Source: an uncultured Clostridia bacterium (lineage in GTDB: Bacteria; Bacillota; Clostridia; Christensenellales; CAG-314). From it: DNA of 64,000 nucleotides. Numbering within the stretch: the first letter of the stretch is position 1; every line of letters starts with the position of its first letter. Both the position numbers and the translations under genes were made by a program. The notes beneath the pieces are model-generated. The model had not been told where the DNA came from. It worked only from the letters and a program-made list of their open reading frames with translations, and searched no databases. The stretch lies in NCBI GenBank assembly GCA_947630425.1, contig CANRHN010000001.1:26567-90566 (forward strand), written 5' to 3'. Positions 47,713-62,129 of this stretch are shown here, piece after piece.

Positions 47713-47717
47713 TAATT

Positions 47718-48425
47718 ATGAACGCAAAATTTATCAGGCAAGAGGATGTGGCTCAGCTATATGGAAATATTGGCGAATTATATAAGCAAGTGGTATGTGG
47801 TGGAAAATCCTTGGAAGAGTACTTAGGGAAAGATTGCGTGGTACAGGATGCGAATATCATTATCGAAGACTTCACACTCGATATGTCGGAAAGCAATGCT
47901 GTTTTAACCGATCTTGAGAATGTAAGACGGGTTTATAAAGCGATGTTGGGGTTGAGTAATTCGCAGGCATCCGATGAGCGTATATGGTTGGCATATTCGT
48001 TCGGCGTATTCAAAGACTATATGAACTACCGTTGGCCCGCAAAGGATGAGAGTACGATTAAGAATAGATGGCTCTTCGGTTATGCTGCCAAGCGTTCATT
48101 ATTTAGACATGGTATTGCGCGTCTTTGGTGGATAGGTAGGTGTACCTATGATAAAGGTAGGGCGGATCCATTTGAGTTAACGGCTTATGTAATAACGAAA
48201 CAGGATATAATAAATCAGTTGCTGGATATAGGTTTTAACGGAAACAAGGAGTTAGTGCTTGCCATAATTGAAGCCATTAGGGACGCCGAGAAAGAAGGCA
48301 AATCGGTGGGACGAGAGGAAATTCGTTCCGTGTCCAGATTTGTTAATTCACTTGGTGGTATGTATTTAATTGATTCGTGGGAGCACGATGAAATTTATCA
48401 GCGAGTTAAAGAAATCTTCGAATGA
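47718..48425 (+). CDS. Hypothetical 235-aa protein
   Basis: 5-nt gap from the previous gene. No domain I can name with confidence. Confidence 0.6.
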   Translation: MNAKFIRQEDVAQLYGNIGELYKQVVCGGKSLEEYLGKDCVVQDANIIIEDFTLDMSESNAVLTDLENVRRVYKAMLGLSNSQASDERIWLAYSFGVFKDYMNYRWPAKDESTIKNRWLFGYAAKRSLFRHGIARLWWIGRCTYDKGRADPFELTAYVITKQDIINQLLDIGFNGNKELVLAIIEAIRDAEKEGKSVGREEIRSVSRFVNSLGGMYLIDSWEHDEIYQRVKEIFE

Positions 48426-48437
48426 TGAGGTGAAAAT

Positions 48438-51400
48438 ATGATATGTCTAAGCTGTCGGCAACAAATACAGGACAATCTAACGGAGTGTCCGTTTTGTCAT
48501 GCGCAATATAATGCTGAAAAGCTTAGATTTATCAAATATATAGGAGATGGAAATAGCCTAGTGGGCTATCAAAAATCCTATAAAATTGTCCTGCTCAAGA
48601 ATATTCTCGAACTAGTGCGTTCAGGACAGCAATTATCCGTTGACAGCATCATGTATACGATAAAAGAATTTTATTTAACTCGTGTGCAACAGGGGCTTCC
48701 TGCGGACTATGAAGTCGATGATAGAATCAAAAACATTTCGGAAAAGACGTCAATATATGACATCTGGGCGGTATTTAAGGCGAACCCCTATAATGTTATT
48801 AACAATCAAGGTTTTTTGTTTCTTGAGAAGAATAGTCGGGGAGAGCTGATTTTTGTTTTGCCCGAGGACATAACGAGCACATTAACTGAAGTTGAGTGCA
48901 ATAATCTAATAATGCTTCTCGAAAAAAAGTTAACCCTGTACTATTCAAAAATGGATGGAATCATTGCGGACGGAGCTATAACTGAAAGCATATTCCAAAA
49001 ACAAGCGGATAATATTTGCGCTCAGCCACAGCAACCTAATCGACAGAATGAAAACCTTATTCCCATTGAGCATACACGGTTAAGCAAGCGAGCCAAGGGG
49101 TGCTTGCTTAGAAGTGGATATGTATATATACACGATATTCTTAATCTCACCGAAGGAGATTTATATCGAATTAGAAATATGGGATATAAGTCCGTAGAGG
49201 AGGTCAAGAACCTTATTTCGGACTATCACCACGGATTTAACGTGTTGTGTGATGATGCGCCCAATACTACTGCTATCAAACTTGAAGAATCGGATATGGA
49301 GTGTTTGCTTCAAGACACTTCATTAAGTGTTAGAGCAAAGAATGTGCTGATTCATGCGGGCTATAATAAAATCGGCGATATTTTAAATGTAACTGAGGAG
49401 GGATTAGCTTCTTACCGTAACTTGGGACAATTAACCATTCGGGAAATTTTGGGGTATGTAAAAAAATTTCGAATTGCGAACGGCTTCGATGACGAGCAAG
49501 AGGAGGGCAAGTACAGCATTTTACTACAACCGATAAAGTCCACAAGTTTAAGCAATCGAGCCAAAAATTCACTTTTACAAAGTGGCTATCGAGTCGTTGG
49601 CGATATTTTAGAATTAACCGAGTCCGAATTGTGGTCGTTGCCCAAAATCGGCAGCAACACCGTGGAAGAGATTTTTCTGTTTTCGGTCACGCTGAAGCAG
49701 AAATTAGCAGACGAAACGCCTGATGATGGTGGGCAAAACTATGGATTAATAAAATATCCGTATATAAATATAAATTCTGAGTGCGAACATATGTTGGTGT
49801 CCGTTTTGGTGTATTTCGGCATGCAACCCTCATTGGTTCGGAAATTGCTGGGTCAGGGCATAAGTCAAATTGGACAGTTGAAGTCAATGGACTACTTGCA
49901 GATCAAGACAACAATGGGTTCGGAATGGATTAAATTATTGCACTTCACTTTGGAGGAGTTCTCTAAAGGTGCTATCCATGCAACAAAAATGTTCTTAGAT
50001 AACATCAGTGAAGAAGAGGATCTAAGTTTCATTATTGAACGTAGCCGAGGTGCAACCCTTCAGGAGCTTGGAAACAAATACGGCGCAACGCGAGAGGGAA
50101 TAAGGCAAAAAGTTGAAAAACCACTTAAATTTATAAAACCAGTAGCAGTTTGCTTGGTTAAAGCAATCATGAAAGAAAGGCAAGTTAAATTTTTGACGCT
50201 ACAAGACATCTATGATATTTACGATAACGACGATTATGATGCCATTATTTCGTATGCACTAAGGGAGTCAGAGGATATTGAAACGATTGAGGCGTTAGAC
50301 CTGTTTTTCATTAAAGGCGAAGTTTCATACAATAATATCCTCAAAAGTGTTATTCAAGAATATGTGGGAGAAGGAATAAATTGGCAGCGCAATATCAATC
50401 AGCTAATTGATGTTTTACAAGAGAAAAACTTGTCTTTTATAGAAATAGACGATGCGTGGCGCTATATGCTAAGTATGGGGTATAAAGTGTACGGCGAATA
50501 TGTCGCTCCTCGTGTCGTGTCCTATGGTACACTCTTAGCAATCATCATAGAAGAAGAATTCTCCGAAGGAATATCATTTTCTGACGCGACGGCAGTTGAT
50601 AGGTTGCGGCAACGTGCATTTGAGCGATTTGGCAACTTAAATTTACCAAAGGAAAACAGAGCTTTAATTGCGCGTGTCACTGACTTGTTGGTGATTTGCG
50701 GCAGAGGGAAATGGATTGCGCCCAATAGGGTAGAAATAGAAATTTCCACCCTGGAAACAATTAAAGAGTATATCGACCAGTCGCCTAATAATATTATTTA
50801 TTATCAAGCGCTGTTCAACCAATTTGAAGGGCTACTCACAATGACGAGCAGTATTTCAAATTATCATTATCTGCATGGGGTTTTAAGGTACTATTATGGG
50901 GCAGAATACACGTTTGGTCGTGATAATCTACAAAAAGAGGCAGGCAATATATCTGGTAGTATAGCAAAGCGTATTTATGATTATATCGCTGAGAAGGGAC
51001 AAGCGGTCAGCCGAAAGGAGTTAAAGGGGTTTCTGAAAATTACTTCAGACGTGATGATTTCCAATACGATAAACTCCAATAAGGATTTGTTTCAATGGGA
51101 GTTTAACTATTATAACTGTTTGAGGAATATTAAAATAATGCCATCCGAAGAAGACTTGTTGCACGAAATAATAACAGAATTGTTTGCCAAGAACCAAAAT
51201 TATTGTAGTGCTAAAATGGTTTACGAGTATTGTAATCAATTAATGCCAGAGATGATTGAGCGCAACAACATAAAAAATCCCACCAATTTGTTCTATATAG
51301 TAGCAACTTTGATGAGTGACAAATACAAGTGCAGGTTTCCCCATATTTTGCCGCTCGACAGCAGAGTGTCGACTACAGAAGATATTGCACGGAAGTTTAT

Positions 51401-51983
51401 AAATAATGCTGAAGTGTTGAATTGGAACGAATTTTCTGCTTTTGTTGAGCATTTGGGCTGGGGGCAGAGTACGGCGAATATGATTTTTAATAGCATAGTA
51501 AATGCGGATTATTATAGGGTATCAAGAAGGGAGTATTTGCGAAAGGATAAACTTGTTTTAACAGGATCACAAATTCGTTTAATAAAAGAAGTGTTGGATT
51601 CGCATCTTTATGGGAAACCATTCCTTGGGTCTTGGGAAATAAACTACCATTTGTTACCTAACATTGGACATGAGTGGACGCCACATTTGTTGGATACGGT
51701 TGTGACATGGTTTGTTGACGAATATAGGATGATATTGCCTTGTTATGGAGCAAGTAAAGCTGAGAGAGGGTTAATAGTAGCGGCTAATAGCGCACTTAAA
51801 ACATATGACGGGGTCGTGGAAAGCGCGGTGCGGACGCATGGTCGCCAAAGCCTAACAGAAAATGAGTTATATACGTTATTAGTTCTTGCCGGGGTAATTA
51901 AGGGTGTACTTCCTAATGAACTAAGAGAGTCAAAATTATTTATATACAATGACGGCAAATATACATTAAAAGAGAGCGTCTAA
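48438..51983 (+). CDS. 1181-aa protein: zinc ribbon, helical module, three or four RpoA alpha-CTD-like HhH repeats, sigma-70 region-4-like HTH, and a large unknown C-terminal region
   Basis: Zinc ribbon CLSCRQ..CPFCH. Repeats LSKRAKGCLLRSGYVYIHDILNLTEGDLYRIRNMGYKSVEEV, LSVRAKNVLIHAGYNKIGDILNVTEEGLASYRNLGQLTIREI and LSNRAKNSLLQSGYRVVGDILELTESELWSLPKIGSNTVEEI. Region-4-like segment ATLQELGNKYGATREGIRQKVEKPLKFIK. Confidence 0.75.
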   Translation: MICLSCRQQIQDNLTECPFCHAQYNAEKLRFIKYIGDGNSLVGYQKSYKIVLLKNILELVRSGQQLSVDSIMYTIKEFYLTRVQQGLPADYEVDDRIKNISEKTSIYDIWAVFKANPYNVINNQGFLFLEKNSRGELIFVLPEDITSTLTEVECNNLIMLLEKKLTLYYSKMDGIIADGAITESIFQKQADNICAQPQQPNRQNENLIPIEHTRLSKRAKGCLLRSGYVYIHDILNLTEGDLYRIRNMGYKSVEEVKNLISDYHHGFNVLCDDAPNTTAIKLEESDMECLLQDTSLSVRAKNVLIHAGYNKIGDILNVTEEGLASYRNLGQLTIREILGYVKKFRIANGFDDEQEEGKYSILLQPIKSTSLSNRAKNSLLQSGYRVVGDILELTESELWSLPKIGSNTVEEIFLFSVTLKQKLADETPDDGGQNYGLIKYPYININSECEHMLVSVLVYFGMQPSLVRKLLGQGISQIGQLKSMDYLQIKTTMGSEWIKLLHFTLEEFSKGAIHATKMFLDNISEEEDLSFIIERSRGATLQELGNKYGATREGIRQKVEKPLKFIKPVAVCLVKAIMKERQVKFLTLQDIYDIYDNDDYDAIISYALRESEDIETIEALDLFFIKGEVSYNNILKSVIQEYVGEGINWQRNINQLIDVLQEKNLSFIEIDDAWRYMLSMGYKVYGEYVAPRVVSYGTLLAIIIEEEFSEGISFSDATAVDRLRQRAFERFGNLNLPKENRALIARVTDLLVICGRGKWIAPNRVEIEISTLETIKEYIDQSPNNIIYYQALFNQFEGLLTMTSSISNYHYLHGVLRYYYGAEYTFGRDNLQKEAGNISGSIAKRIYDYIAEKGQAVSRKELKGFLKITSDVMISNTINSNKDLFQWEFNYYNCLRNIKIMPSEEDLLHEIITELFAKNQNYCSAKMVYEYCNQLMPEMIERNNIKNPTNLFYIVATLMSDKYKCRFPHILPLDSRVSTTEDIARKFINNAEVLNWNEFSAFVEHLGWGQSTANMIFNSIVNADYYRVSRREYLRKDKLVLTGSQIRLIKEVLDSHLYGKPFLGSWEINYHLLPNIGHEWTPHLLDTVVTWFVDEYRMILPCYGASKAERGLIVAANSALKTYDGVVESAVRTHGRQSLTENELYTLLVLAGVIKGVLPNELRESKLFIYNDGKYTLKESV

Positions 51984-52000: not shown

Positions 52001-54094
52001 CTAGTCTTGATTTTCTCGCCCGTTTGAAAAATCCAAATAAAACAGCTCGTCATTGAGTTTGACAAATAAGATGTCAGTTCTATTATAGTTTTGCAGGTCG
52101 TTAGCGGTTATGGGTTGTCCGCTTTCAACACCCAATCTATCACGGAAATATCGACCCAATAGCGAGTTGTCGTCAGGACAAGTAATCGCTTTATCACCTT
52201 GTTGCTCAACCCGCATTTGCATACAATAGTCGTCGTCAGTAATAACGGTAAAGTATCGTCTGTTCAAAGGGAAAAATCCAGTTGAGGCAATCGACCGAGG
52301 AAGCGGAATGTATGCTTGATCATGATTTCTTCCGGGGCGTTGACCCCAATTTAGTCCAGAGGATTTGCCAACCTCGCCAGTTCTAGATACAAGACTAATT
52401 GTTTGAGTTAATAGCTTTTCGGGATGCAATTCACGAGTTTCGTAATCAAATTGGGGTTGATTTTTATAAATACGGATATAATTTTCCACCTCGTTATCGA
52501 TGTTAATAATCGAATTGCGTTCCACGCTCAGATAGTATTCGTTTGCATCTTCAGCAGAACACTCCATAAGTGTTTCGCCGCAGTCTTTACTAAATGCGCT
52601 TTGCATATAGTTCGCCGATCCACTAAACGCTTTGTATGGCTTGTCATGTTTTAACCAAATGTAGATTTTGGAGTGGATAGGGGGCATTTTGTAGTTATAC
52701 TGGCAGGATATATCCGAACAATCGGGTTTTTCAGAATACTTTTTTTGCAATTCCTTAAACCCCATATGAACGCCAAGACTCAATCCGTCAAAAGGACACA
52801 TGCCGAGTATCAATTTTATTTTTATGGGAATAGCACCAACTTCTTTTAATTTGTCGATATGATACGCCGCCATGCTGGGTGATGCATAAGCGGATACAAT
52901 CCGTAGCTCATCAGCACCATCCAATGCCGGTTGCAATAATACTCTGTTTTCCAAATCGGTATCAAACTGATACTTCATGTCAGAATCCTTGGCATAGAGG
53001 AATTCCAAAGCGTTGCATTCAATGGAGGGATAAGGAATGCCAGCGAAACATTTTAATATCGCTTCAAAAATGATTTTCGCCCCTTGACAAGGGACGGCCA
53101 TACCAATTTGCTTACGAACACTCTCCTTAGATCCGATAAATCGATAGCTGTCGGGGAATGTTTGTAGCCGCGCACGTTCTCTGTTCGTTAATGCACGGGG
53201 CTCTTCCCAGTGGTAAATATGTGTACCGCCGCCGCCACTACCTGTTACAGTATAAGAGGGTTTCGTGGGGTCAAGACGTTTATAAACTTGGCTTATTTTT
53301 GCCCCAGCAACATTCAGGCGAAGATGCTCGGGCAAATCGGCCGTGAAGGCATTTTCGCCCGGACGAATATGATTTAATCTTGCAATGACAGCTTCGGATT
53401 GTCTAGTGCGTTCATTATTAAAAGCATCTGGAGCAATCGGCGGAACCGTTAACGCCGTCTCGCAAGTGTTATCAATACCGCTATAGGGTCGAGGAGAAGG
53501 GACGCGAAATTCGATTTTTTGGTCGTTTCTTATGCCAACTATGATTATTCTATGTCTTGCCTGCGGAATGCCATAGTCTTCAAACTGATAAAGGTGCGGA
53601 TAAAGTGCATAACCGGCGTTTTGCATTTCATGTAATATTTTGGTCAGTGTTTTCCCCTCATTATCGTTTTTAAGTCCGCTTACGTTTTCAGCGATAAACC
53701 ATTTGGGCTGGAAACGGGTCAGCGCCTTGATGCCATAGGTATAAAGAGGGCCATATGTGCCATTTAATCCTTTTTTTTCTCCGACATCGCTGTAATCATT
53801 ACAAGGAAAACCAAAAGCCAGCGCATCAATTGGTGTAAGCTGTGATAAATCAAATTGTCGAACATCTTTATGATAAACACTTGGTGCCAATCTATCAATT
53901 TTCCCTTGATTATTTACAGGGGTATTGCAAATATTGTGCGAATAAGTGCAGCAAGTGTCAAAATCATAATCATTTGCCCAGGCGTGTACTATACTAAATT
54001 TTTCACCATTTTTATTTGTCTGTTGTTGCGCATGGAGGGCTCCCCAGGCAATTCCGCCAGGACCGCAAAATAATTCCCCTAATTTAAATTGCAT
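52001..54094 (-). CDS. Fusion protein: DNA (cytosine-5) methyltransferase plus PLD-family (NgoFVII/BfiI-like) restriction nuclease with a B3-like DNA-binding domain
   Basis: N-terminal half: FCGPGG (motif I), GFPCNDYS (IV), ENVSGL (VI), QARHRIIIVG (VIII), LTNRERARLQTFPDSYRF and GMAVP (IX-X). C-terminal half: HKD motif IHSKIYIW...D...GSANYM, then LNWGQRPGRNHDQAYIPLP. Confidence 0.75.
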   Translation of the reverse strand: MQFKLGELFCGPGGIAWGALHAQQQTNKNGEKFSIVHAWANDYDFDTCCTYSHNICNTPVNNQGKIDRLAPSVYHKDVRQFDLSQLTPIDALAFGFPCNDYSDVGEKKGLNGTYGPLYTYGIKALTRFQPKWFIAENVSGLKNDNEGKTLTKILHEMQNAGYALYPHLYQFEDYGIPQARHRIIIVGIRNDQKIEFRVPSPRPYSGIDNTCETALTVPPIAPDAFNNERTRQSEAVIARLNHIRPGENAFTADLPEHLRLNVAGAKISQVYKRLDPTKPSYTVTGSGGGGTHIYHWEEPRALTNRERARLQTFPDSYRFIGSKESVRKQIGMAVPCQGAKIIFEAILKCFAGIPYPSIECNALEFLYAKDSDMKYQFDTDLENRVLLQPALDGADELRIVSAYASPSMAAYHIDKLKEVGAIPIKIKLILGMCPFDGLSLGVHMGFKELQKKYSEKPDCSDISCQYNYKMPPIHSKIYIWLKHDKPYKAFSGSANYMQSAFSKDCGETLMECSAEDANEYYLSVERNSIINIDNEVENYIRIYKNQPQFDYETRELHPEKLLTQTISLVSRTGEVGKSSGLNWGQRPGRNHDQAYIPLPRSIASTGFFPLNRRYFTVITDDDYCMQMRVEQQGDKAITCPDDNSLLGRYFRDRLGVESGQPITANDLQNYNRTDILFVKLNDELFYLDFSNGRENQD

Positions 54095-54096
54095 CG

Positions 54097-54411
54097 TTAT
54101 TTGCCCTCCTTTAATTCATTTATAAAAAGCAAAACTTTTTTTAATTGGTCTTCATTTAAACCAACGCAACTGTCAATAAGAGGTTTATATAACAAGTAGG
54201 TTTCATCGCTTTCCAAGTAGGCGGCAAGTAGGTTGGTTTGTAATACCTTTGATAGCGAAAGTAACATTTTGATGGAGGGTTTCAGCAACCTATTGTGTTC
54301 TAATTTGCTGACATCGGTATGATTAATGTTGGCAAGTTTGGCCAACCCCCTAACCGATAAGCCCCTTTCTTCTCGGCGGGATTTAATGATGGCGCCCAAA
54401 TCACTATGCAT
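54097..54411 (-). CDS. XRE-type HTH, probable R-M controller (C) protein
   Basis: 104 aa with HTH LSVRGLAKLANINHTDVSKLEHN. It lies 2 nt upstream of the M-R fusion gene. Confidence 0.65.
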   Translation of the reverse strand: MHSDLGAIIKSRREERGLSVRGLAKLANINHTDVSKLEHNRLLKPSIKMLLSLSKVLQTNLLAAYLESDETYLLYKPLIDSCVGLNEDQLKKVLLFINELKEGK

Positions 54412-54417
54412 AAATAT

Positions 54418-54446
54418 ATAATAGCATAGATTAAAAGAAAAAGCAA
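54418..54446 (-). promoter_or_regulatory. Promoter predicted to give a leaderless C-gene transcript
   Basis: On the minus strand: TTGCTT (54446-54441), a 17-nt spacer, TATTAT (54423-54418), 6 nt, then ATG (54411). Confidence 0.5.
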
Positions 54447-54449
54447 CCG

Positions 54450-54471
54450 TGTGCAGCTATTTGGCTGCACA
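54450..54471. promoter_or_regulatory. 8-bp palindrome abutting the -35 (candidate C-box operator)
   Basis: TGTGCAGC-N6-GCTGCACA, 4 nt upstream of the -35 of the C-gene promoter. Confidence 0.4.
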
Positions 54472-54513
54472 AAAAACAAAGATAATGCCGTTTATGGATA
54501 GAAAAGGTGAGGG

Positions 54514-54558
54514 GGTGAATTGTCAAACAAAGTGTTGAACTTAATTTGACAATTCACC
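54514..54558. repeat. Perfect 14-bp inverted repeat with a 17-nt loop
   Basis: GGTGAATTGTCAAA (54514-54527) pairs with TTTGACAATTCACC (54545-54558). Confidence 0.8.
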
Positions 54559-54586
54559 GTTTGTGGGAAGCGAGTTCGCGGGTTCG

Positions 54587-54659
54587 TTCAACCGAGGAGC
54601 GTAGCGACGAACGCCCTCAACCAAGCACGCATTGCGCCCGCCACGAAGCGTAGCAAAGT
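54587..54659 (+). repeat. 73-nt insert element, third copy
   Basis: About 90% identical to 35508-35580. It is preceded by GCGGGTTCG and followed by ACAACGCGCC rather than the tRNA-Arg 3' end. Confidence 0.8.
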
Positions 54660-54757
54660 ACAACGCGCCGCGCGTCAAGACAAGCACATGTCCCATTGTC
54701 ATTTTGATACAAATGTTATAATTATTGGTTAAAATTAAAATAAAAAAGGAGAAAAAT

Positions 54758-55666
54758 ATGAAGTATAAAGAATGGCTGGAAATCTGGCTGAACAACTATG
54801 TAAAAACAACATGCAAAGTGCGCACAAGCGATATCTACCGTTACAGGGTTGAGCATTGCATTGTGCCGTTTTTAGGCGAGTACGAGTTGCACGACCTAAC
54901 TTTGTCGATATTGCAACAGTTTGTAACGGATCTGTTAAATCCTAGTGAGGGCAAGCCACTCTCGGCGAACACGGTAAACGGTGTTATCTCCGTTGTGCAG
55001 AATTCGCTTAAAACTGCGTTTACGTTGGGATATGTTGAAGCGTATGACGCAAATAAAATCCGTCGTCCGAGAACCGTGGAAAAGAAGGTAGAGTGTTTCT
55101 CGGTCGCGGAGCAAAAGCAAATAGAGGCGTGCATAAAAAACAGTAACAAACTAAAACTCTATGGAATCATAATCTGCATGTACACGGGATTGCGTCTTGG
55201 AGAACTGCTTGCTTTGGAGTGGAAAAATGTGGATTTGAACGCTTGCCAACTGACGGTGGAAAAGACTTGTTACTATGTCAATGGACAGCGAATTTTGGAC
55301 GCGCCCAAAACGGCAAACTCTTTGCGCGCCATTCCTTTTCCAAAACAACTATTACCTCTGTTCAAGGAAATGTACAAGGCGCACAAAACTAAGTATGTAA
55401 TTGAAGCGAAAGGACGCCCTGTTTCGGTGCATTCATACCAACGCAGCTTTGAGTTGCTGCTCATCAAGCTCAAAATTCCGCACAAATGTTTCCACTCTTT
55501 GCGGCACACATTTGCCACCCGAGCGTTGGAATGCGGTATGGACGTAAAGACCCTTGCGGAATTGCTCGGACACTCCAACCCGACCGTAACGCTCAAACGC
55601 TATGCACACAGTATGTTGGAATACAAAATTCAGATGATGAACAAACTCGGCAGATTATTTGCATAA
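54758..55666 (+). CDS. Tyrosine recombinase (phage-integrase family)
   Basis: ATG at 54758 follows AAAGGAG. SAM-like N-domain. Catalytic pattern GLRLGELLAL (R), HSLRHTFAT (H-x-x-R) and LGHSNPTVTLKRYAH (H...Y). One TTGGTTAAAA motif lies at 54725-54734. Confidence 0.85.
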   Translation: MKYKEWLEIWLNNYVKTTCKVRTSDIYRYRVEHCIVPFLGEYELHDLTLSILQQFVTDLLNPSEGKPLSANTVNGVISVVQNSLKTAFTLGYVEAYDANKIRRPRTVEKKVECFSVAEQKQIEACIKNSNKLKLYGIIICMYTGLRLGELLALEWKNVDLNACQLTVEKTCYYVNGQRILDAPKTANSLRAIPFPKQLLPLFKEMYKAHKTKYVIEAKGRPVSVHSYQRSFELLLIKLKIPHKCFHSLRHTFATRALECGMDVKTLAELLGHSNPTVTLKRYAHSMLEYKIQMMNKLGRLFA

Positions 55667-55711
55667 AAAATGACGAAAACGCTCGAAAACGTATCGCCAA
55701 AAATGGGAATG

Positions 55712-55872
55712 TATTAGCATAATAGATACACAATACATAAAAAAGTATATATCATTTGCTTTGAAATGTAAATAGTTTCCGCTTTTCTTTTGATTTTTCC
55801 TGTCGAGTTTTGTGCCAACATACAACAATTCAAAAGCAAATTCCGAGTTTCTGTGTATCTATTATGCTAATA
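55712..55872. promoter_or_regulatory. 161-bp segment bounded by perfect 21-bp inverted repeats (candidate invertible promoter, or a MITE)
   Basis: TATTAGCATAATAGATACACA (55712-55732) is the exact reverse complement of 55852-55872. A TG-extended -10 (TGATATATA, minus strand, 55754-55746) lies inside the segment. Confidence 0.6.
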
Positions 55873-55952
55873 GGCACACAAAAAATCACCCAAAATTTGT
55901 GCATATGTTGTCTAATAAAACAAACATTTGTCACGCAAAAGGAGAACCAAAA

Positions 55953-58178
55953 ATGGCAATTTACAAATGCAAAATGTGCGGCGGAGATCTGGACGTCGCC
56001 GAAAACACGACCGTAGTGGTGTGCGACTACTGCGGCTCCAAGCAGACTGTCCCCACCGCCCGGGACGAAGAGTTGTCAAGCCTGTTTAACCGCGCAAATA
56101 CATTGCGCCGCAAGTGCGAATTTGACAAGGCAGAACAGCTGTACGAGAAGATCCTTGTCAAGGACGACAAACAGCCGGAGGCATATTGGGGCGTGTTGCT
56201 GTGCAGGTACGGCATCGAGTATGTTGAGGATCCCGCCTCGTCCAAACGCATTTCCACCTGCCACCGCACCGCGTTTGAGGCAATTACGTCCGACGAATAC
56301 TACAAGTCGGCATTGCAGTATGCCGACCCCGTGCAAAAGGCAATTTACGAGCAGGAAGCAAAGTACATCGACGGCGTGCAAAAGGATATACTTGCCCTTT
56401 CTCAGCAGGAAGACCCTTACGACGTGTTCATCTGCTACAAGGAAACAGACAACGGCAAGCGCACGCAGGATAGCGCAATCGCCAATGACATCTATTACCA
56501 ACTCACAAGCGAAGGTTTCAAGGTGTTCTATGCCGCTATCACATTGGAAAACAAACTCGGTTCCGCTTACGAACCGGTAATTTTTGCCGCGCTCAATTCG
56601 GCAAAAGTGATGTTGGCTATCGGTACCAAGCCGGAGTATTTCAGTGCCGTTTGGGTCAAGAACGAGTGGTCGCGCTATCTCAAAATGATGAAGAGCGACA
56701 AATCCAAACAACTCATACCCTGCTACCGCGATATGGATGCCTACGAACTGCCCGAGGAATTTGCACACTTGCAAGCGCAGGATATGAGCAAGATCGGCTT
56801 TATCAGCGATATTGTACGCGGTATCAAGAAGATTGTGCGCAAGGAAGAACCGAAAGTGGAAAGCCGCTCCTCTGAAAGCATTGGCGGCGGCAGCCTCAAA
56901 AATCTGCTCAAACGCGCCTACCTCGATCTCGAAAGTCGCAATTTCGATAGCGCAAGGACTCAATTCGACAAGATGCAAGATATCGACCCGGAAAACGGCG
57001 AAGTGTATTTAATTGGCCTGCTGTGCGATTTGCGGTTATCGCGTCCGGAAGATTTGGAAGAATGTTCGGCTCCGTTTACAAGCAACAACAATTGGCGCAA
57101 TTTGAACCGTTATGCCGACCCCGCATTGAAAGCGCGCATTGACAAGTTGTTGCAACTCAACGAAAATTGGAGAATGTACTGCTCTGCCACACAAAAATTC
57201 GATTTGTTGAGCGACGACAGAATATACGAAGATACAAAGAATCAGCTTGCCGCACTCGGCGATTACCGCGACAGCAAGGATTTGCTTGAATTTTTACCTG
57301 ATGTAAGGGATAAAGTTCTTGCAATGGATATAGAGAAAATTATCAAAGAGAACAATGATTATAACGAGTACGATGATTCTTACGCCACATTGCACGAAAG
57401 AGAATATAAAACGCTTTTGGCTGAAAAAAATGTGTACGAATCCGATTTGAGACTGCATGGAACAAGCAATTGGTGGAACGCCGAAAAAGAGACACGACTC
57501 TCCGAGTTACAAAAACTTATCGGAGAAGATGAAAACCAAAAAACCGAACATGAAAATTACAACCCATTTGAAAACTGCAAAAAAGCGAAACAACTGCTTG
57601 CAAAGATTTTGAATGATGAAATCCGCACAAAATGTGGAAAAATGCTAAAAGAATCAATTAAATTTGTTGCCCAAAAATGCAATGAAAAATGTTTATCAGA
57701 CGAAGAACAAATTGCAACGCTGCATGATGGCATTGAACAGGCAAAATTATTAGCAACCTATGACATTAAAAGGGTAGAGAAAAGTAGCAACTTAATTGTT
57801 TTAGGTGGCATTCTTCTGGGGGCATTGCTTTGGATTGCACTTCAAGTCAGTATTATAACTTTCAACGTGGCAGAGGGTGTTAGTGCGTGGATTTTTGTAA
57901 TCCTTGCACCCGCAGTGTTGCCCGGCATAATTATGATTTCTATTGGTAGAGCGAAATTAAAACAAGCATTGAAAGTTAAAATTTATTTTTTCAAAAGTCT
58001 AAAATTAGTGTCGGAATATAAAAAGCGATATTCTGAAATTCAGTCAAAGGCTATTGATATATCGGAAGGAACTGCCAAAATTACAACCATTGAAACTGAT
58101 ATTGAAAATCAAAAAAGCAATATCGCCACATGTGAGAATTTATTGAACGAATTAACGCAAGAATATTCCGATGAATAG
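55953..58178 (+). CDS. Zinc-ribbon / helical-repeat / TIR-domain protein with C-terminal TM helices (741 aa)
   Basis: ATG at 55953 follows AAAGGAGAA. Zinc ribbon CKMCGG..CDYCGS. TIR-like block YDVFICYKETD...FKVFYAA...VMLAIGT...WVKNEWSRYL. TM segment IVLGGILLGALLWIALQV / WIFVILAPAVLPGIIMISIG. Confidence 0.75.
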   Translation: MAIYKCKMCGGDLDVAENTTVVVCDYCGSKQTVPTARDEELSSLFNRANTLRRKCEFDKAEQLYEKILVKDDKQPEAYWGVLLCRYGIEYVEDPASSKRISTCHRTAFEAITSDEYYKSALQYADPVQKAIYEQEAKYIDGVQKDILALSQQEDPYDVFICYKETDNGKRTQDSAIANDIYYQLTSEGFKVFYAAITLENKLGSAYEPVIFAALNSAKVMLAIGTKPEYFSAVWVKNEWSRYLKMMKSDKSKQLIPCYRDMDAYELPEEFAHLQAQDMSKIGFISDIVRGIKKIVRKEEPKVESRSSESIGGGSLKNLLKRAYLDLESRNFDSARTQFDKMQDIDPENGEVYLIGLLCDLRLSRPEDLEECSAPFTSNNNWRNLNRYADPALKARIDKLLQLNENWRMYCSATQKFDLLSDDRIYEDTKNQLAALGDYRDSKDLLEFLPDVRDKVLAMDIEKIIKENNDYNEYDDSYATLHEREYKTLLAEKNVYESDLRLHGTSNWWNAEKETRLSELQKLIGEDENQKTEHENYNPFENCKKAKQLLAKILNDEIRTKCGKMLKESIKFVAQKCNEKCLSDEEQIATLHDGIEQAKLLATYDIKRVEKSSNLIVLGGILLGALLWIALQVSIITFNVAEGVSAWIFVILAPAVLPGIIMISIGRAKLKQALKVKIYFFKSLKLVSEYKKRYSEIQSKAIDISEGTAKITTIETDIENQKSNIATCENLLNELTQEYSDE

Positions 58179-58256: not shown

Positions 58257-59264
58257 ATGACAAATCTACCAAAGAGACCGCAGGTAATTTTGCTCGGCAA
58301 TGGGATAAATCGTGCATTCAACGGTGTGTCGTGGAATGATTTGTTGAACTCAATCGCAGATGAAAAATATAAAGACAAACAAATAGAGTGTCCCATGCCG
58401 CTTAAGGCAATTCTCGTAACGGGCGATAATATCGATAAAACGCTCAAAAACCATATCGAGCAAAATAGGCAGCAGGCATATGGCGCAATTGTACAAAAAG
58501 AACATGCCGCAATGCTCCAAAAAATTTTATCAATCGGTGCAGATCATATTCTTACCACCAATTACAGTTACGAATTGGAAATGGCGGCAAAAAACGTAAA
58601 AAGCGGGTTGTCGGACTATGCAATCGAGCAAATGATGGCACATACCGATGCCGTTTACAAGGCGGAAAGTAAATATCTGTTGAGCACATACAACCAAGTA
58701 CAATACGAAAAAACACCCAATTGTATTTGGCATATACACGGCGAATCTCGCAAGCCGAGCAGTATTGTGTTGGGGCATTACAATTACGGAAAACTTGTAC
58801 ATAGATACATTGAAACTCTTAACAAACTTGCCAAAACCGAAAATCGATATAAAAATTACGAAGGACAATATAAAGAATGGAAATTTCGAAGTTGGGTTGA
58901 CGCATTTATTTTGGGCGATGTGTATGTGCTTGGATACAAATTGGATTTGTCTGAATTTGACTTGTGGTGGCTCATCAATCGCAAAAAAAGAGAAAAAGCA
59001 GAACATGGTGATATATATTTTTACGAGCCGGCAGTGGAGAACGCGGAAAATGCGGATTCGGAAAACATTGACGCACGTTTGGAACTTATACGAGTTTTCG
59101 CAAAAGAAGTCAAGGATATGAGCGTGACGATTCCGAGAAAGAGCAAAAATGATGACCAATCTGCTTCCAATATCAAATATTACGAATTTTATAAAAAGGC
59201 AATTAACGACATAGCGAACAAAATAAGTGAAATAAAAAATAAGGAGAAAAAGACAAATGTCTAA
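58257..59264 (+). CDS. SIR2-like (SIR2_2-type) protein, 335 aa
   Basis: Motifs VILLGNGINRAF, ILTTNYSYELE, IWHIHGES and VYVLGYKLDLSEFDLWW. GGAG lies 9 nt before the ATG at 58257 (GTG at 58242 is also possible). I recognise no SLOG-like C-terminal domain. Confidence 0.7.
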   Translation: MTNLPKRPQVILLGNGINRAFNGVSWNDLLNSIADEKYKDKQIECPMPLKAILVTGDNIDKTLKNHIEQNRQQAYGAIVQKEHAAMLQKILSIGADHILTTNYSYELEMAAKNVKSGLSDYAIEQMMAHTDAVYKAESKYLLSTYNQVQYEKTPNCIWHIHGESRKPSSIVLGHYNYGKLVHRYIETLNKLAKTENRYKNYEGQYKEWKFRSWVDAFILGDVYVLGYKLDLSEFDLWWLINRKKREKAEHGDIYFYEPAVENAENADSENIDARLELIRVFAKEVKDMSVTIPRKSKNDDQSASNIKYYEFYKKAINDIANKISEIKNKEKKTNV

Positions 59265-61029
59265 ATTTGTAATCGAATGTCCCAAATGCGGCAATTATGC
59301 CGAGGGTAAAACGGGATTTTTTGCAAAAAAGAAAATCGAGTGTTCCTGCGGGCACGTCATTGACGTGCGAACGGAAAAATTGACTTCTCGCGTGTGTCCG
59401 CATTGTGGCAACACGGTTATTTTCGATCAAACCAAGGGCGAGGACGCGCTTTGTCCTGTGTGCCACGAGCATATCAACACGCGCGAGAGTATGAAGGCGC
59501 TTGTCAAATTTACCTGCCCCTCTTGCAGCTGCACGTTGACCGCGGACAAGTCGGCGGACAAGTATGTCTGCCCGCTGTGCGATACGGAGATCGACGTGCA
59601 AAAGCGTATCAGGCAGGAAGAAGTAAAGAACCAAGGAATGGCAAGCGTAATAAAATACGAGGGCGGCAACGACGTATTTGTGTGGAAGCACCCAATCGAA
59701 GATTTCAATTTGGGCTCGCAGTTGATAGTACACGAGTCGCAGGAGGCAATATTCTTCCGCGACGGCAAGGCGTTGGATCTGTTCGGCGCAGGTCGCTACA
59801 CGCTTGCAACGCAAAATTTGCCGTTGTTGGAGAACTTGTACAAGTTGCCCGTTTCGCCCGAGGCGGTGTTCCATTCCGAGGTGTACTTTGTCAACCTCAC
59901 CACGCAAATGGGCGTCAAGTGGGGCACGGACAGCAAGGTGCGCATGTTCGATCCCGCGTCCGGCTTGCATATCGACTTGGGCGCATGCGGCAATTTTAAC
60001 ATGCGTGTGATCGACTCGCGAAGATTGCTTTTGAAACTTGTCGGAACGACAAGTAGTTTCACTCGCGACGACGTGACGGGTAACGACAAGTACGGCGTAA
60101 CCCATGTTGTTGGGCAATTCAAGGCGCTTATTATGAACAAAGTAAAAGCCAACCTCGCCCGCGCCATCAGAGAAACAGGCATCAACATTTTGGAAATAGA
60201 CGAGTATCTCGACATTCTTTCCGACAAATTGAGAGTTATCATCAACCAAACCTTGGAAGAATACGGACTTACCATGTCGGAGTTCTACATAACAAACATA
60301 CTCACTCCGGATGACGACCCCAACTTCAAACGGCTCAAACAGCAATTCGCCGACAAAACGTTGCTTGTACGTCAAGAACAAATACGCAAGGCAGAGGCGG
60401 AAGCCGCGCAGGAACGCAAAATTGTCGAGGCGCAAACCGACGCAAAACTCAAAATGGTAGATGCGCAAGGCGAAGCGGAGGCGTTGAAAATCAAAGCGCA
60501 AGCAGAGGCGGAGGCCTACCGCGCCAAAGCGTTTGCCGAGGCGGACGAGATGAAAGCCAAAGGTTACACCTACCAACAGGAAACCGCACGGCAGGTGGGC
60601 ACGGAAGCAATGAAAAACGGACTTACGGGTAACGGCGGCGCAGGTGGCGCAATGGGCGATTTGGCGGCGTTGGGCATATCGCTTGGAGCAATGGGCAGCG
60701 TGATAGGCATGACCAAGGACGCGCTCAACCCCAATTTGAACGAAACCGCCCGGGTTGCTCAAACTATGCTTTCGCAAGACGCTTGGGATTGCGCAGCGTG
60801 CGGTAAAAAGGGTATAACCACCAAGTTTTGCCCGGAGTGCGGCGCAAAAAAACCGGAAACAGCAACTTGGGACTGCCCCAATTGCGGCGCAAAGCACATT
60901 GCGTCCAAGTTTTGCCCCGAATGTGGCACGCAAAAGTCCGACGGACCGATTGCTTGGGATTGCCCCGTGTGCGGCACAAAAGGAATAACATCCAAATTTT
61001 GCCCCGAATGTGGTGCAAAAAAGGAGTGA
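59257..61029 (+). CDS. SPFH/Band-7 (YdjI/COG4260-like) protein flanked by multiple zinc ribbons
   Basis: Overlaps the SIR2 gene by 8 nt. There are four N-terminal CxxC pairs. The core VIKYEGGNDVFVWKHP...QEAIFFRDGK matches the YdjI-type SPFH family. An Ala/Glu coiled coil follows, then three tandem C-terminal WDC..CG...KFCPECG ribbons. Confidence 0.75.
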   Translation: MSKFVIECPKCGNYAEGKTGFFAKKKIECSCGHVIDVRTEKLTSRVCPHCGNTVIFDQTKGEDALCPVCHEHINTRESMKALVKFTCPSCSCTLTADKSADKYVCPLCDTEIDVQKRIRQEEVKNQGMASVIKYEGGNDVFVWKHPIEDFNLGSQLIVHESQEAIFFRDGKALDLFGAGRYTLATQNLPLLENLYKLPVSPEAVFHSEVYFVNLTTQMGVKWGTDSKVRMFDPASGLHIDLGACGNFNMRVIDSRRLLLKLVGTTSSFTRDDVTGNDKYGVTHVVGQFKALIMNKVKANLARAIRETGINILEIDEYLDILSDKLRVIINQTLEEYGLTMSEFYITNILTPDDDPNFKRLKQQFADKTLLVRQEQIRKAEAEAAQERKIVEAQTDAKLKMVDAQGEAEALKIKAQAEAEAYRAKAFAEADEMKAKGYTYQQETARQVGTEAMKNGLTGNGGAGGAMGDLAALGISLGAMGSVIGMTKDALNPNLNETARVAQTMLSQDAWDCAACGKKGITTKFCPECGAKKPETATWDCPNCGAKHIASKFCPECGTQKSDGPIAWDCPVCGTKGITSKFCPECGAKKE

Positions 61030-61037
61030 GGTGAACC

Positions 61038-61730
61038 ATGAAAAAGAGTGTTTTGTACACGATTATTGCCTTTGCGGCGGTGCTTGTCGTTTACTGTGTG
61101 GCGTTTCTCGTCATTCCGTTTCCCAAATTGGCGGCGTCTTGGGTAGAATTCGGTTTTACGGTGCTTGCAATATGTTTGAGCGGAGCGGTGTTTGCCTATG
61201 CTTTCCGCAGGAGTGTCAAGAGCAAGCTGTACGGATTTCCGCTATTCAAAGTGGCGTTGATTTATGTTGCCGTGCAATTTGCGGCAGGTGTGGTGATTTG
61301 CGTCGTTGCCGCGTTTGTCAACGTTCCCGTTTGGGTATCGATAGTTGTGTCCGTGCCTCTTCTCGCCTTTGGAACGTTGGGCTTTGTTGCAACGGACAGC
61401 GCCAAGAGCGTTGTTGAACAAATAGACGCGGCAACGCAAAGCAGCACACACACCATTGAAAAACTTCAGACGGAAGTTGCAACCATCATCGACAATTGTG
61501 CCGACGCAAACGCACGCGAGGGCATGGAAAAGTTGGCGGAACTTTTGAGGTACAGCGACCCCGTGTCCTGCCCCGAAACTTTGGAATTGGAAAACGACCT
61601 TGTCGCCAAGACGGCGCAACTTCGCGACAGGGTAAAGGAAAATAATTTTGTCGAGGCAACTGCCCTCACGAATGAAATCAAGACAAACTTGGCAGAACGT
61701 AATCGCCTGTGCAAGTTTTACAAAAAATAA
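61038..61730 (+). CDS. Hypothetical four-TM protein with a helical cytoplasmic tail
   Basis: ATG follows AAGGAGTGAGG, 8 nt after the SPFH stop. Confidence 0.55.
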   Translation: MKKSVLYTIIAFAAVLVVYCVAFLVIPFPKLAASWVEFGFTVLAICLSGAVFAYAFRRSVKSKLYGFPLFKVALIYVAVQFAAGVVICVVAAFVNVPVWVSIVVSVPLLAFGTLGFVATDSAKSVVEQIDAATQSSTHTIEKLQTEVATIIDNCADANAREGMEKLAELLRYSDPVSCPETLELENDLVAKTAQLRDRVKENNFVEATALTNEIKTNLAERNRLCKFYKK

Positions 61731-61842: not shown

Positions 61843-61863
61843 TGGCGGAAGAGATGGGATTCG
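61843..61863 (-). repeat. Duplicate of the tRNA-Ser 3' 21-mer
   Basis: TGGCGGAAGAGATGGGATTCG is identical to 62037-62057 (complement of T-loop to CCA). Confidence 0.85.
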
Positions 61864-62036: not shown

Positions 62037-62129
62037 TGGCGGAAGAGATGGGATTCGAACCCATGTGCCACCGATGGGTGGCAACCGCATTTCGAGTGCG
62101 GGCCGTTACAACCACTTCGATACTCTTCC
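62037..62129 (-). tRNA. tRNA-Ser (anticodon CGA)
   Basis: Hand-folded cloverleaf: acceptor GGAAGAG/CTCTTCC, anticodon stem CCGCA/TGCGG with loop CTCGAAA, long variable arm GCCACC-CATC-GGTGGC, T arm ATGGG-TTCGAAT-CCCAT, discriminator G, CCA. Confidence 0.9.

What the first reader, a model, noticed from the sequence alone, without database searches (positions are those of the whole stretch)
55712..55872. Perfect 21-bp inverted repeats bracket a 119-bp promoter-bearing segment between a tyrosine recombinase and the TIR/SIR2 operon (candidate inverton)
TATTAGCATAATAGATACACA (55712-55732) is the exact reverse complement of 55852-55872. The repeat stops being complementary immediately outside and inside these coordinates. 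The bracketed unit starts 46 nt after the recombinase stop and ends 80 nt before the TIR gene ATG.

Inside it is a TG-extended -10 (TGATATATA) on the minus strand (55754-55746). As sequenced it fires toward the recombinase gene. After inversion it would sit at about 55830-55838 and fire into the TIR-SIR2-SPFH operon.

I found no convincing fixed promoter between 55873 and 55952.

The size and repeat length match known recombinase-driven phase switches in Clostridia (21-bp repeats flanking 150-200 bp). A phase-variable TIR/SIR2 operon would be notable.
Basis: partly seen in the sequence, partly recalled or inferred. Interest (0 to 1): 0.75.

Follow-up and report, generated by a model that had tools for sequence, protein, structure and literature searches.

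The report
Invertible promoter switch before TIR/SIR2 operon
A tyrosine recombinase gene is followed by a 161-bp flip-switch carrying a promoter, assembled here in the OFF direction, which most likely turns a TIR/SIR2/SPFH (probable anti-phage) operon on and off; related copies in other gut Clostridia are found in both directions and sit in front of many different defence operons.

Summary
A perfect 21-bp inverted repeat (55712-55732 / 55852-55872) brackets 119 bp, and it is the only such repeat in the window.

The inverton interpretation is well supported:
- Each arm lies in a 13-3-13 near-palindromic core site, typical of tyrosine recombinases.
- The interior carries a sigma70-like promoter (TTTACA-17-TATACT) beside the proximal arm. 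It points at the recombinase, which is the OFF direction.
- Recombinase relatives (84-95% identical) keep the same sites while the interior diverges.
- Two of these relatives (L013, L010/L011) hold the segment inverted exactly at the repeats, so the promoter faces the cargo.
- Repeat changes occur in both arms together.
- Four further ON/OFF pairs occur among 39-61% relatives from mostly human-gut metagenomes.
- A terminator-like hairpin on the minus strand would stop OFF-state transcripts before the recombinase gene.
- The unit is not a MITE.

Caveat: the TIR-type cargo was seen six times, always OFF. No read data could be examined.

This is a new member of a known kind. The added interest is that the same recombinase-plus-switch cartridge precedes diverse defence-like operons: restriction-modification, IetA-like AAA plus protease, and TIR/SPFH.

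The parts
54696..54725 (+). Promoter-like site upstream of the recombinase gene. TTGTCA is followed by a TGtTATAAT-type -10 region.
   Evidence: Consensus scan and the sequence itself. The block is conserved in L005 and L013. Function is inferred.
54758..55666 (+). Tyrosine site-specific recombinase of 302 aa, the putative invertase.
   Evidence: Pfam Phage_integrase at 5e-26 plus Phage_int_SAM_3. The catalytic R, K, H, R, H and Y columns are invariant across 15 relatives. It scores below the cut-off of every NCBIfam model. The closest solved structure is the Tn1549 Int.
55661..55699 (-). Terminator-like hairpin (55671-55699) followed by AUUUUUUAUG, read on the minus strand. It would stop OFF-state transcripts before they run antisense into the recombinase gene.
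   Evidence: RNA fold of -17.9 kcal/mol, z-score -3.4. The stem GACGA...UCGUC plus the U-run is conserved in 7 loci, but no pair shows changes on both sides. Function is inferred.
55704..55732 (+). Proximal recombination core site: TGGGAATGTATTA-GCA-TAATAGATACACA (13-3-13). The left repeat arm is 55712-55732.
   Evidence: The outer half is conserved in all close relatives even though it lies outside the repeat.
55733..55851 (.). The 119-bp invertible interior.
   Evidence: Relatives L013 and L010/L011 carry it in the opposite orientation.
55744..55772 (-). Sigma70-like promoter: -35 TTTACA (55772-55767), 17-nt spacer, -10 TATACT (55749-55744). As assembled it fires toward the recombinase (OFF). 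After inversion it would lie at about 55812-55840, with a start near 55847.
   Evidence: The scan matches 10 of 12. The same register is conserved in all 7 close loci and in about 32 distant loci.
55801..55806 (-). Conserved TCGACA motif inside the segment, about 28 nt upstream of the -35 (55806 versus 55772). It may bind an accessory factor.
   Evidence: It is invariant in the alignment of 7 segments, whereas the surrounding interior is only 56% identical. Function unknown.
55852..55880 (+). Distal recombination core site: TGTGTATCTATTA-TGC-TAATAGGCACACA (13-3-13). The right repeat arm is 55852-55872.
   Evidence: The outer half matches the half-site consensus with 2 mismatches.
55873..55952 (+). 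Fixed 5' leader of the operon, with GGAG at 55941-55944 and the ATG at 55953. No promoter-like site was found.
   Evidence: It is partly conserved in the orthologue L095.
55953..58178 (+). Cargo gene 1: zinc-ribbon, TPR, TIR, TPR protein of 741 aa.
   Evidence: Pfam TIR_2 at 1e-11 plus TPR. No PADLOC hit. At least 8000 homologues share the N-terminal ~440 aa.
58257..59264 (+). Cargo gene 2: SIR2_2-domain protein of about 335 aa.
   Evidence: Pfam SIR2_2 at 4.5e-7. The start codon was read from the sequence. No relative in the PDB.
59257..61029 (+). Cargo gene 3: SPFH (Band_7_1) protein with several zinc ribbons, 590 aa.
   Evidence: Pfam Band_7_1 at 3.5e-39 plus DZR. The pairing with the TIR/TPR protein recurs in L046, L099 and L180.
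61038..61730 (+). Cargo gene 4: 230-aa protein with no family match; the N-terminus looks hydrophobic.
   Evidence: No Pfam hit. A 231-aa gene occupies the same position in L099.

Best explanation
This is a recombinase-driven invertible promoter (an inverton) controlling the downstream TIR-TPR / SIR2 / SPFH operon.

**How it most likely works**
- The adjacent tyrosine recombinase binds two oppositely oriented core sites. Each has two roughly 13-bp half-sites around an asymmetric GCA/TGC centre.
- It exchanges strands in the central region and flips the 119-bp interior.
- As assembled, the switch is OFF. The only good promoter fires toward the 3' end of the recombinase gene, and its transcript would be stopped by a hairpin plus U-run just before that gene.
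- After inversion the promoter would lie at about 55812-55840 and transcribe through the distal site and an approximately 105-nt leader into the operon.
- The likely biological sense is bet-hedging. A costly NAD-consuming or membrane-acting defence cassette would be expressed in only a sub-population.

**Shown**
- The repeats and the site anatomy.
- The promoter consensus and its conservation.
- Both orientations in relatives, with breakpoints at the repeats.
- Co-variation of the two arms.

**Inferred**
- That this particular copy still flips.
- The position of cleavage.
- Terminator function.
- That the operon is silent when OFF.
- That the cargo is anti-phage.
For: **The repeat and its sites**
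- Perfect 21-bp inverted repeat, unique in the window.
- 13-3-13 near-palindromic sites.
- Across 7 close loci the arms are 90-92% identical, against 56% for the interior outside the promoter.

**Changes occur in both arms together**
- L007: central GCA to ACA in both arms.
- L010: ATACACA to ATGTACA in both arms.
- L096: half-sites CTAATA/TATTAG in both arms.

**Both orientations, with breakpoints at the repeats**
- L013 (ON) versus L014/L005 (OFF): same cargo, flanks 88% and 97% identical, interior 110/120 only as the reverse complement.
- L010/L011 are ON.
- Four more ON/OFF pairs among 39-61% relatives.
- In L063 versus L029 the inner half-sites have swapped arms, which places the crossover in the site centre.

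**Promoter**
- It abuts one arm and points outward in all 7 close loci. It does the same in about 27 OFF and 5 ON distant loci.
- No + strand promoter lies in the fixed leader.

**Other support**
- Minus-strand terminator-like hairpin.
- Recombinase with intact catalytic residues.
- The TIR/SPFH cargo lies behind three different recombinase/switch lineages: the window, L046 and L099.
Against: - The ON state was never seen for this locus or for any TIR-type cargo. The window, L001, L002, L095, L046 and L099 are all OFF.
- No reads were available, so heterogeneity within a population is untested.
- The promoter and the terminator are consensus or fold predictions only. The terminator stem shows no double compensatory changes.
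- Read-through from the recombinase promoter into the operon is not excluded, because no + strand terminator was found.
- In L099 the recombinase gene is frameshifted, so some copies may be locked.
Confidence: 0.85

Rival explanations
1. A fossil or locked switch. The element belongs to an inverton family, but in this strain it no longer flips, and the operon is permanently silent or is driven by read-through.
For: All six TIR-type loci are OFF. L099 has a frameshifted recombinase and is OFF. No ON copy of this exact locus was found.
Against: The repeat here is perfect. The recombinase is full length with its catalytic residues. The three identical contigs have only 4-6x coverage, and an assembly reports only the majority state. 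OFF also predominates across the family, about 27 to 5.
Confidence: 0.1
2. An integration or cassette-exchange module. The recombinase is chiefly an integrase, either of the tRNA-Ser island or of a cargo cassette, and the repeats are its attachment sites rather than a phase switch.
For: - Recombinases that are 84-95% identical precede unrelated cargo.
- Similarity between those loci ends at the outer half of the distal site.
- The locus lies in a low-GC island that ends at a tRNA-Ser with a duplicated 3' 20-mer.
- The nearest solved relative is a transposon integrase.
Against: - Sites in inverted orientation give inversion, not excision.
- No third site exists in the window.
- The repeats bear no resemblance to the tRNA repeat.
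- The recombinase is 6 kb from the tRNA.
- The invariable promoter-bearing interior and the observed flips are explained only by a switch.

This reading could be an additional activity rather than an alternative.
Confidence: 0.04
3. A MITE or the remnant of an insertion-sequence end that landed between two genes by chance.
For: Short terminal inverted repeats around an AT-rich segment of about 160 bp.
Against: - Only one copy in 64 kb.
- The two exact hits among 185,579 species genomes both lie directly after a recombinase homologue.
- No exact hits in the JGI metagenome or viral-contig scans, and no match in plasmids or phages.
- The position relative to the recombinase stop codon is constant.
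Confidence: 0.01

Closest known systems
Recombinase-adjacent invertible promoters of gut bacteria, as catalogued by PhaseFinder-type surveys. An example is inverton group 139 with tyrosine 'invertase group 35' in Clostridia (PMC11892184).
   Same: Short inverted repeats flank a promoter-bearing segment next to a tyrosine recombinase gene, in host-associated Clostridia. The recombinase itself is not under the control of the switch.
   Different: Membership in group 139 could not be checked, because its repeat motif is not in the held supplements. The published examples have interiors of 206-228 bp, against 119 bp here. That survey does not mention defence cargo at all ('defense' occurs 0 times).
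Clostridioides difficile RecV switches (flgB, cwpV, cmrRST, pdcB; PMC7446863, PMC9286219)
   Same: A tyrosine recombinase, imperfect or perfect repeats of about 21 bp, invertible segments of 150-200 bp, and ON/OFF control of a downstream operon in a Clostridium-class organism.
   Different: RecV acts in trans on many dispersed switches. Here each switch has its own recombinase immediately upstream, and the window holds only one pair of sites. Sequence relationship to RecV was not tested. The flgB switch acts after initiation through Rho, whereas here the segment carries the promoter.
E. coli fimS with FimB/FimE
   Same: A promoter on an invertible segment, a tyrosine recombinase encoded next to the switch, and the switch lying just past the 3' end of a recombinase gene.
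   Different: 9-bp repeats and a 314-bp segment (my own knowledge). The recombinase here scores 19.7 bits against the FimB/E-type NCBIfam model NF007371, whose cut-off is 222, so it is not a member.
Bacteroides Tsr-type invertases with adjacent invertible promoters (PMC13139388, PMC12118408)
   Same: A dedicated recombinase next to the switch, repeats with an internal palindrome, and control of phage-susceptibility traits.
   Different: A different phylum, and the cargo is mostly capsule, fimbriae or S-layer rather than cytoplasmic NADase-type defence genes.
Recombinase-linked defence systems (small serine recombinases as defence markers, PMC13552941)
   Same: A recombinase gene is genetically linked to diverse anti-phage systems. 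That paper speculates that inversion might regulate them.
   Different: That work concerns small serine recombinases and reports tyrosine recombinases as unreliable baits in Bacillota. Here a defined tyrosine-recombinase cartridge with a demonstrated flip polymorphism is the linked element.

Membership tests
Invertible promoter (inverton) driven by a site-specific recombinase | Two inverted repeats flank a short DNA segment. | tested here: met
   21 of 21 nt are complementary, with a 119-nt interior. Chance expectation is 0.01.
Invertible promoter (inverton) driven by a site-specific recombinase | A promoter lies inside the segment and is directed outward. | tested here: met
   Met at consensus level only. 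TTTACA-17-TATACT matches 10 of 12. It is conserved in register in 7 close loci and about 32 distant loci.
Invertible promoter (inverton) driven by a site-specific recombinase | A cognate recombinase with intact catalytic residues. | tested here: met
   The adjacent gene has a Phage_integrase domain. R146, K184, H246, R249, H272 and Y282 are invariant. That it is the cognate enzyme is inferred from constant adjacency and from co-variation of site and enzyme.
Invertible promoter (inverton) driven by a site-specific recombinase | Both orientations exist, with breakpoints at the repeats. | tested here: met
   Met for the family: L013 versus L014, L010/L011, and four more pairs. For this exact locus only OFF was seen. 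Mixture within a population cannot be tested without reads.
Invertible promoter (inverton) driven by a site-specific recombinase | Expression of the downstream genes depends on orientation. | not testable with these tools
   This needs RNA 5'-end mapping or locked ON and OFF strains.
FimB/FimE-type tyrosine DNA invertases (NCBIfam NF007371) | Score above the family cut-off. | tested here: not met
   19.7 bits against a cut-off of 222.
XerC/XerD/XerA and integron integrases (NCBIfam equivalogs) | Score above the family cut-off. | tested here: not met
   The best match is XerA at 78.9 bits against a cut-off of 220. XerC scores 70.2 against 335.
C. difficile RecV regulon switches | Recombinase orthologous to RecV, and one enzyme serving many dispersed switches. 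| not tested
   No RecV sequence was available to the tools. The window holds a single switch, which is unlike the RecV arrangement.
MITE / non-autonomous transposon | Many dispersed copies in unrelated contexts, with target-site duplications. | tested here: not met
   A single copy in the window, and all related copies lie next to recombinase homologues.
Thoeris (ThsA SIR2 effector plus ThsB TIR) | Proteins match ThsA/ThsB models. | tested here: not met
   No PADLOC family matches the TIR, SIR2 or SPFH proteins. NCBIfam ThcB4 scores 23.5 bits against a cut-off of 220. The middle gene is replaceable: SIR2 in the window, unrelated genes in L099 and L046.
Integron-like cassette platform | Recombinase-mediated capture of cassettes at an attachment site beside a promoter, with cassettes bounded by recombination sites. 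| tested here: inconclusive
   Cargo differs behind near-identical cartridges, and similarity between those loci ends at the distal site. However, no site was found at the cargo end.

The most novel reading that the evidence does not exclude
The roughly 1.3-kb unit made of the recombinase promoter, the recombinase gene, the anti-antisense terminator and the 13-3-13 flip-switch is a portable phase-variation cartridge. In gut Clostridia it has been placed repeatedly in front of anti-phage operons, possibly by its own site-specific activity at the distal site. Those operons include restriction-modification, IetA-like AAA plus protease, and TIR-TPR/SPFH cassettes.

If so, two things follow:
- NADase- or abortive-infection-type immunity would be run as a stochastic ON/OFF trait.
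- The recombinase would be a usable bait for finding new defence systems.
Probability: 0.35. Interest if true: 0.75.

Novelty: new member of a known kind. Interest (0 to 1): 0.6.

Why it matters
Phase-variable restriction-modification systems and capsules are well known. The seven literature searches run in the held paper library turned up no case of promoter inversion switching a TIR/SIR2-type, NAD-targeting defence cassette.

If the switch works as inferred, three things follow:
- It gives a concrete and easily testable example of bet-hedging over the cost or autoimmunity of abortive-infection-type immunity.
- It means metagenomic presence of such defence genes does not equal expression; most copies assembled OFF.
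- It offers a defined recombinase-plus-site family (thousands of homologues, 13-3-13 sites, interiors of about 105-160 bp). This family can be used to predict invertons from genome sequence alone and to flag uncharacterised cargo, such as the TIR-TPR/SPFH pair, as candidate defence systems.

Tried and rejected
- **Exact-repeat scans.** The JGI metagenome scan and the viral-contig scan with the 20-mer gave 0 hits. The species-genome scan with the 21-mer gave only two loci, both beside recombinase homologues. The MITE reading was therefore rejected.
- **Similarity search.** blastn of the 301-bp region against plasmids and phages found nothing.
- **Rfam.** The scan of 54300-56100 gave only a chance miRNA-type hit on a hairpin, so this is no known RNA element.
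- **Exact look-up of the TIR protein.** Nothing was on record, so no alternative-orientation contig for this exact locus could be retrieved.
- **Search for a third recombination site.** Half-site and palindrome patterns across the window, and a direct reading of the cargo end, gave chance-level hits only. A shufflon or cassette-excision layout is therefore not supported.
- **hCom2 inverton paper.** Its held supplements do not contain the repeat sequence, so a link to its 'group 139' could not be tested.
- **Cluster look-up for names and accessions.** No names were returned.
- **PDB sequence searches.** None were found for the TIR and SIR2 proteins.
- **Covariation in the terminator-like stem.** No double compensatory changes were found, so the stem rests on conservation and the fold only.
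- **Contig ends at or near the repeat (L006, L012).** These were considered as signs of mixed orientation, but the ends are 1 nt and 34 nt off the expected branch point. They were left as inconclusive.

Full report
**1. The observation**

The sequence holds a perfect 21-bp inverted repeat, TATTAGCATAATAGATACACA at 55712-55732 and its reverse complement at 55852-55872, with 119 bp between the arms. With up to three mismatches allowed, the 21-mer occurs only at these two places in the 64 kb. The chance expectation is 0.01, and no shuffle gave two matches. It is the only long perfect inverted repeat in the window with well-separated arms; the others are hairpins.

The gene context is as described:
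- A 302-aa tyrosine recombinase at 54758-55666.
- A zinc-ribbon/TPR/TIR protein at 55953-58178.
- A SIR2_2 protein at 58257-59264 (start read).
- An SPFH protein with zinc ribbons at 59257-61029.
- A 230-aa protein with no family match at 61038-61730.

**2. Anatomy of the switch**

Each repeat arm is part of a longer near-palindrome:
- Proximal: TGGGAATGTATTA-GCA-TAATAGATACACA (55704-55732).
- Distal: TGTGTATCTATTA-TGC-TAATAGGCACACA (55852-55880).

That is two half-sites of about 13 bp around a 3-bp asymmetric centre. This is the layout of tyrosine-recombinase core sites; the comparison with lox, FRT and dif comes from established knowledge. The two sites are in inverted orientation, and the distance from centre to centre is 143-145 bp in all close relatives.

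Inside the segment, 11 nt from the proximal arm, lies the only strong promoter-like element. It is on the minus strand: TTTACA (55772-55767), a 17-nt spacer, then TATACT (55749-55744), matching 10 of 12. It points toward the 3' end of the recombinase gene. No + strand promoter-like site lies in the 80-nt fixed leader.

Between the recombinase stop codon and the proximal site, the minus strand folds into a hairpin followed by AUUUUUUAUG (-17.9 kcal/mol, z-score -3.4). The stem and the U-run are conserved in seven loci, but no pair shows changes on both sides. I read this as a terminator that stops OFF-state transcripts before they run antisense into the recombinase gene. That is an inference.

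A TCGACA motif (55806-55801, minus strand) is invariant in an otherwise poorly conserved interior. Its role is unknown.

**3. Evidence from related sequences**

*Identical and close relatives.* The exact recombinase occurs on two further contigs with identical switch DNA in the same orientation. A scan of 185,579 species genomes with the 21-mer found only two loci. Both are rabbit-gut Clostridia MAGs, and both hits lie directly after a diverged recombinase homologue. The JGI metagenome and viral-contig scans with the 20-mer found no exact copy, and similarity searches of plasmids and phages found no match. The MITE alternative is therefore excluded.

The recombinase has about 6300 homologues at E <= 1e-20. 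I fetched the genomic context of relatives that are 78-95% identical. All carry the same two sites at the same distance from the stop codon. Across seven of these loci the arms are 90-92% identical, while the interior outside the promoter is 56% identical.

*Changes in the arms occur in both arms together:*
- The central GCA becomes ACA in L007.
- The inner half ATACACA becomes ATGTACA in L010.
- The half-sites switch to CTAATA/TATTAG in the 78% relative L096.

This is what is expected if the two sites must stay identical for strand exchange, or are kept alike by it.

*The segment is found in both orientations.*
- L013 (recombinase 95% identical) and L014/L005 (93-94%) share the same cargo and have colinear flanks that are 88% and 97% identical. 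Their 120-bp interiors match 110/120 only as reverse complements, and the breakpoints lie exactly at the 20-bp repeats.
- L010/L011 are also inverted relative to the window.
- When all segments are oriented by the promoter they align end to end. In L010 and L013 the promoter then abuts the cargo-side half-site instead of the recombinase-side one.

*The wider family.* In 80 metagenomic loci, mostly from human gut, relatives that are 39-61% identical mostly keep the same architecture:
- A repeat begins 2-100 nt after the stop codon.
- The interior is 105-160 bp.
- A TTGACx-17-TATAAT promoter abuts one arm and fires outward.
- About 27 are OFF and 5 are ON.

Most relatives below about 39% identity, including the phage integrases in the viral collection, lack the repeats.

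Four ON/OFF pairs with flanks 87-99% identical show interiors that match only as reverse complements:
- L063/L029: 121/127.
- L069/L043: 135/144.
- L039/L052: 131/133.
- L016/L017: 118/123.

In L063 versus L029 the differing inner half-sites have changed arms. This maps the crossover to the centre of the site.

**4. What it controls**

*The TIR-type cassette.* None of the TIR, SIR2 or SPFH proteins matches a PADLOC family. None reaches an NCBIfam cut-off; ThcB4 scores 23.5 bits against 220. The TIR and SIR2 proteins have no PDB relative by sequence. The cassette is therefore not a canonical Thoeris system.

The pairing of the TIR/TPR protein with the SPFH/zinc-ribbon protein recurs:
- Behind a 51%-identical recombinase and its switch in L046.
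- Behind a more distant, frameshifted recombinase with its own GGAATA-AAA-TATTCC-type switch in L099.
- Without any switch in L180.

The middle gene is replaceable: SIR2 here, unrelated genes elsewhere. The orthologous locus L095 (recombinase 85% identical, the same TIR gene) is also OFF. The TIR-type cargo was thus seen six times, always OFF.

*Other cargo.* Cargo behind other members of the family is dominated by defence-type domains:
- ResIII and DEAD helicases.
- N6_Mtase, Eco57I and type IIG enzymes.
- Type IV restriction enzymes.
- IetA-like AAA with a trypsin-like protease.
- PbeA, T5orf172 and TRIP13-like proteins.
- Some surface proteins: Flg_new, Big_2 and LRR_5.

*The surrounding island.* The window locus lies in a low-GC island from about 40 to 62 kb. 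The island also holds a C5-methylase/NgoFVII fusion with a C-protein-like HTH, and a DUF6339 operon. It ends at a tRNA-Ser with a duplicated 3' end.

**5. Mechanism and rivals**

The best-supported reading (0.85) is a working invertible promoter, assembled OFF. When flipped, the promoter would move to about 55812-55840 and the operon would be transcribed from near 55847.

The rivals are:
- **A locked or fossil switch (0.10).** It is favoured only by the absence of an ON observation and by the frameshifted recombinase in L099.
- **An integration or cassette-exchange role (0.04 as the main function).** It is suggested by unrelated cargo behind near-identical cartridges and by similarity between loci ending at the distal site. 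It is weakened by the inverted site orientation and by the lack of a third site.
- **A MITE (0.01).**

**6. Comparison with what is known**

Recombinase-adjacent invertons in gut bacteria, including Clostridia, are an established class (PMC11892184, PMC11602134). The C. difficile RecV switches, E. coli fimS and the Bacteroides Tsr switches work in the same way. The recombinase here is not a member of the FimB/E, Xer or integron-integrase families by their curated cut-offs. Its relationship to RecV and to 'invertase group 35' could not be tested.

The seven literature searches I ran found no report of promoter inversion controlling a TIR/SIR2-type cassette. A 2026 paper links small serine recombinases to defence systems and only speculates about inversion (PMC13552941).

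**7. Verdict**

- Novelty: a new member of a known kind. The notable extra is a portable recombinase-plus-switch cartridge recurrently coupled to defence operons.
- Interest: 0.6.

Noticed in passing
window 61844-61863 and 62037-62129: A tRNA-Ser(cga) gene lies on the minus strand directly after the cargo operon. Its 3'-terminal 20-mer (GGCGGAAGAGATGGGATTCG) is repeated 194 bp away. This looks like an integration scar marking the right edge of the low-GC island that spans about 40-62 kb.
   Followed up: partly
window 52001-54411 and 54514-54558: A single 697-aa protein fuses a C5 cytosine methylase to an NgoFVII-type PLD restriction endonuclease. Next to it is a 104-aa C-protein/CapH-like HTH. 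A 20-bp, 90% complementary palindrome (GGTGAATTGTCAAA...TTTGACAATTCACC) lies between the HTH gene and the recombinase; it could be an operator or a terminator.
   Followed up: partly
window 54560-54690: A GC-rich stretch of about 130 bp sits in an otherwise AT-rich spacer just upstream of the recombinase promoter. It is partly alignable in L005, L007 and L013. A 53-aa ORF was called there in L002. No Rfam match. Unexplained.
   Followed up: partly
window 45015-51983: A four-gene + strand operon encodes proteins of 618 aa, 285 aa, 235 aa (DUF6339) and 1181 aa. The last carries three RNA-polymerase alpha-CTD-like repeats and a weak PglW-like match. It is probably another uncharacterised defence system in the same island.
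   Followed up: no
window 55953-58178; proteins P0137-P0256: The N-terminal ~440 aa of the TIR protein (zinc ribbon, TPR, TIR, TPR) has at least 8000 homologues at about 60% identity, mostly from uncultured Clostridia. Their C-terminal domains are highly variable (LRR_5, RCC1, WG repeats, PF19789). The pattern is that of a sensor family with swappable recognition modules.
   Followed up: partly
L099 3607-4532: In a MAG with a 77%-identical TIR operon, the upstream recombinase gene is split into 184-aa and 109-aa ORFs by an in-frame stop, and the switch is OFF. This may be a naturally locked-OFF allele, or it may be an assembly error.
   Followed up: partly
L006 (end at 1060) and L012 (end at 2779): Two short contigs break inside the proximal repeat or 34 nt past it. 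Mixed orientations in the sample would tend to cause such breaks, but the ends do not fall exactly at the expected branch point.
   Followed up: partly
L007 1875-7444; L010 7352-12912; L003: The cargo behind 81-86% identical recombinases comprises two small proteins (one weakly Snf7-like), an IetA-like AAA ATPase, a trypsin-like protease and a large BspA-type LRR protein. This is an IetAS-like cassette with added parts.
   Followed up: partly
L039 ~1510-1690: In this ON-state locus the two arms differ in the central trinucleotide (CTATTG-TTA-TAATAG versus CTATTG-CAA-TAATAG). In the OFF relative L052 the arms are identical. The cause could be a consensus drawn from mixed reads or a real heteroduplex-derived difference. 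Unexplained.
   Followed up: no
L096 345-1858: In the 78% relative, two serine-recombinase genes (a Resolvase and a large recombinase with a zinc ribbon) lie upstream of the tyrosine recombinase cartridge. This suggests the cartridge can sit on or beside mobile elements.
   Followed up: no
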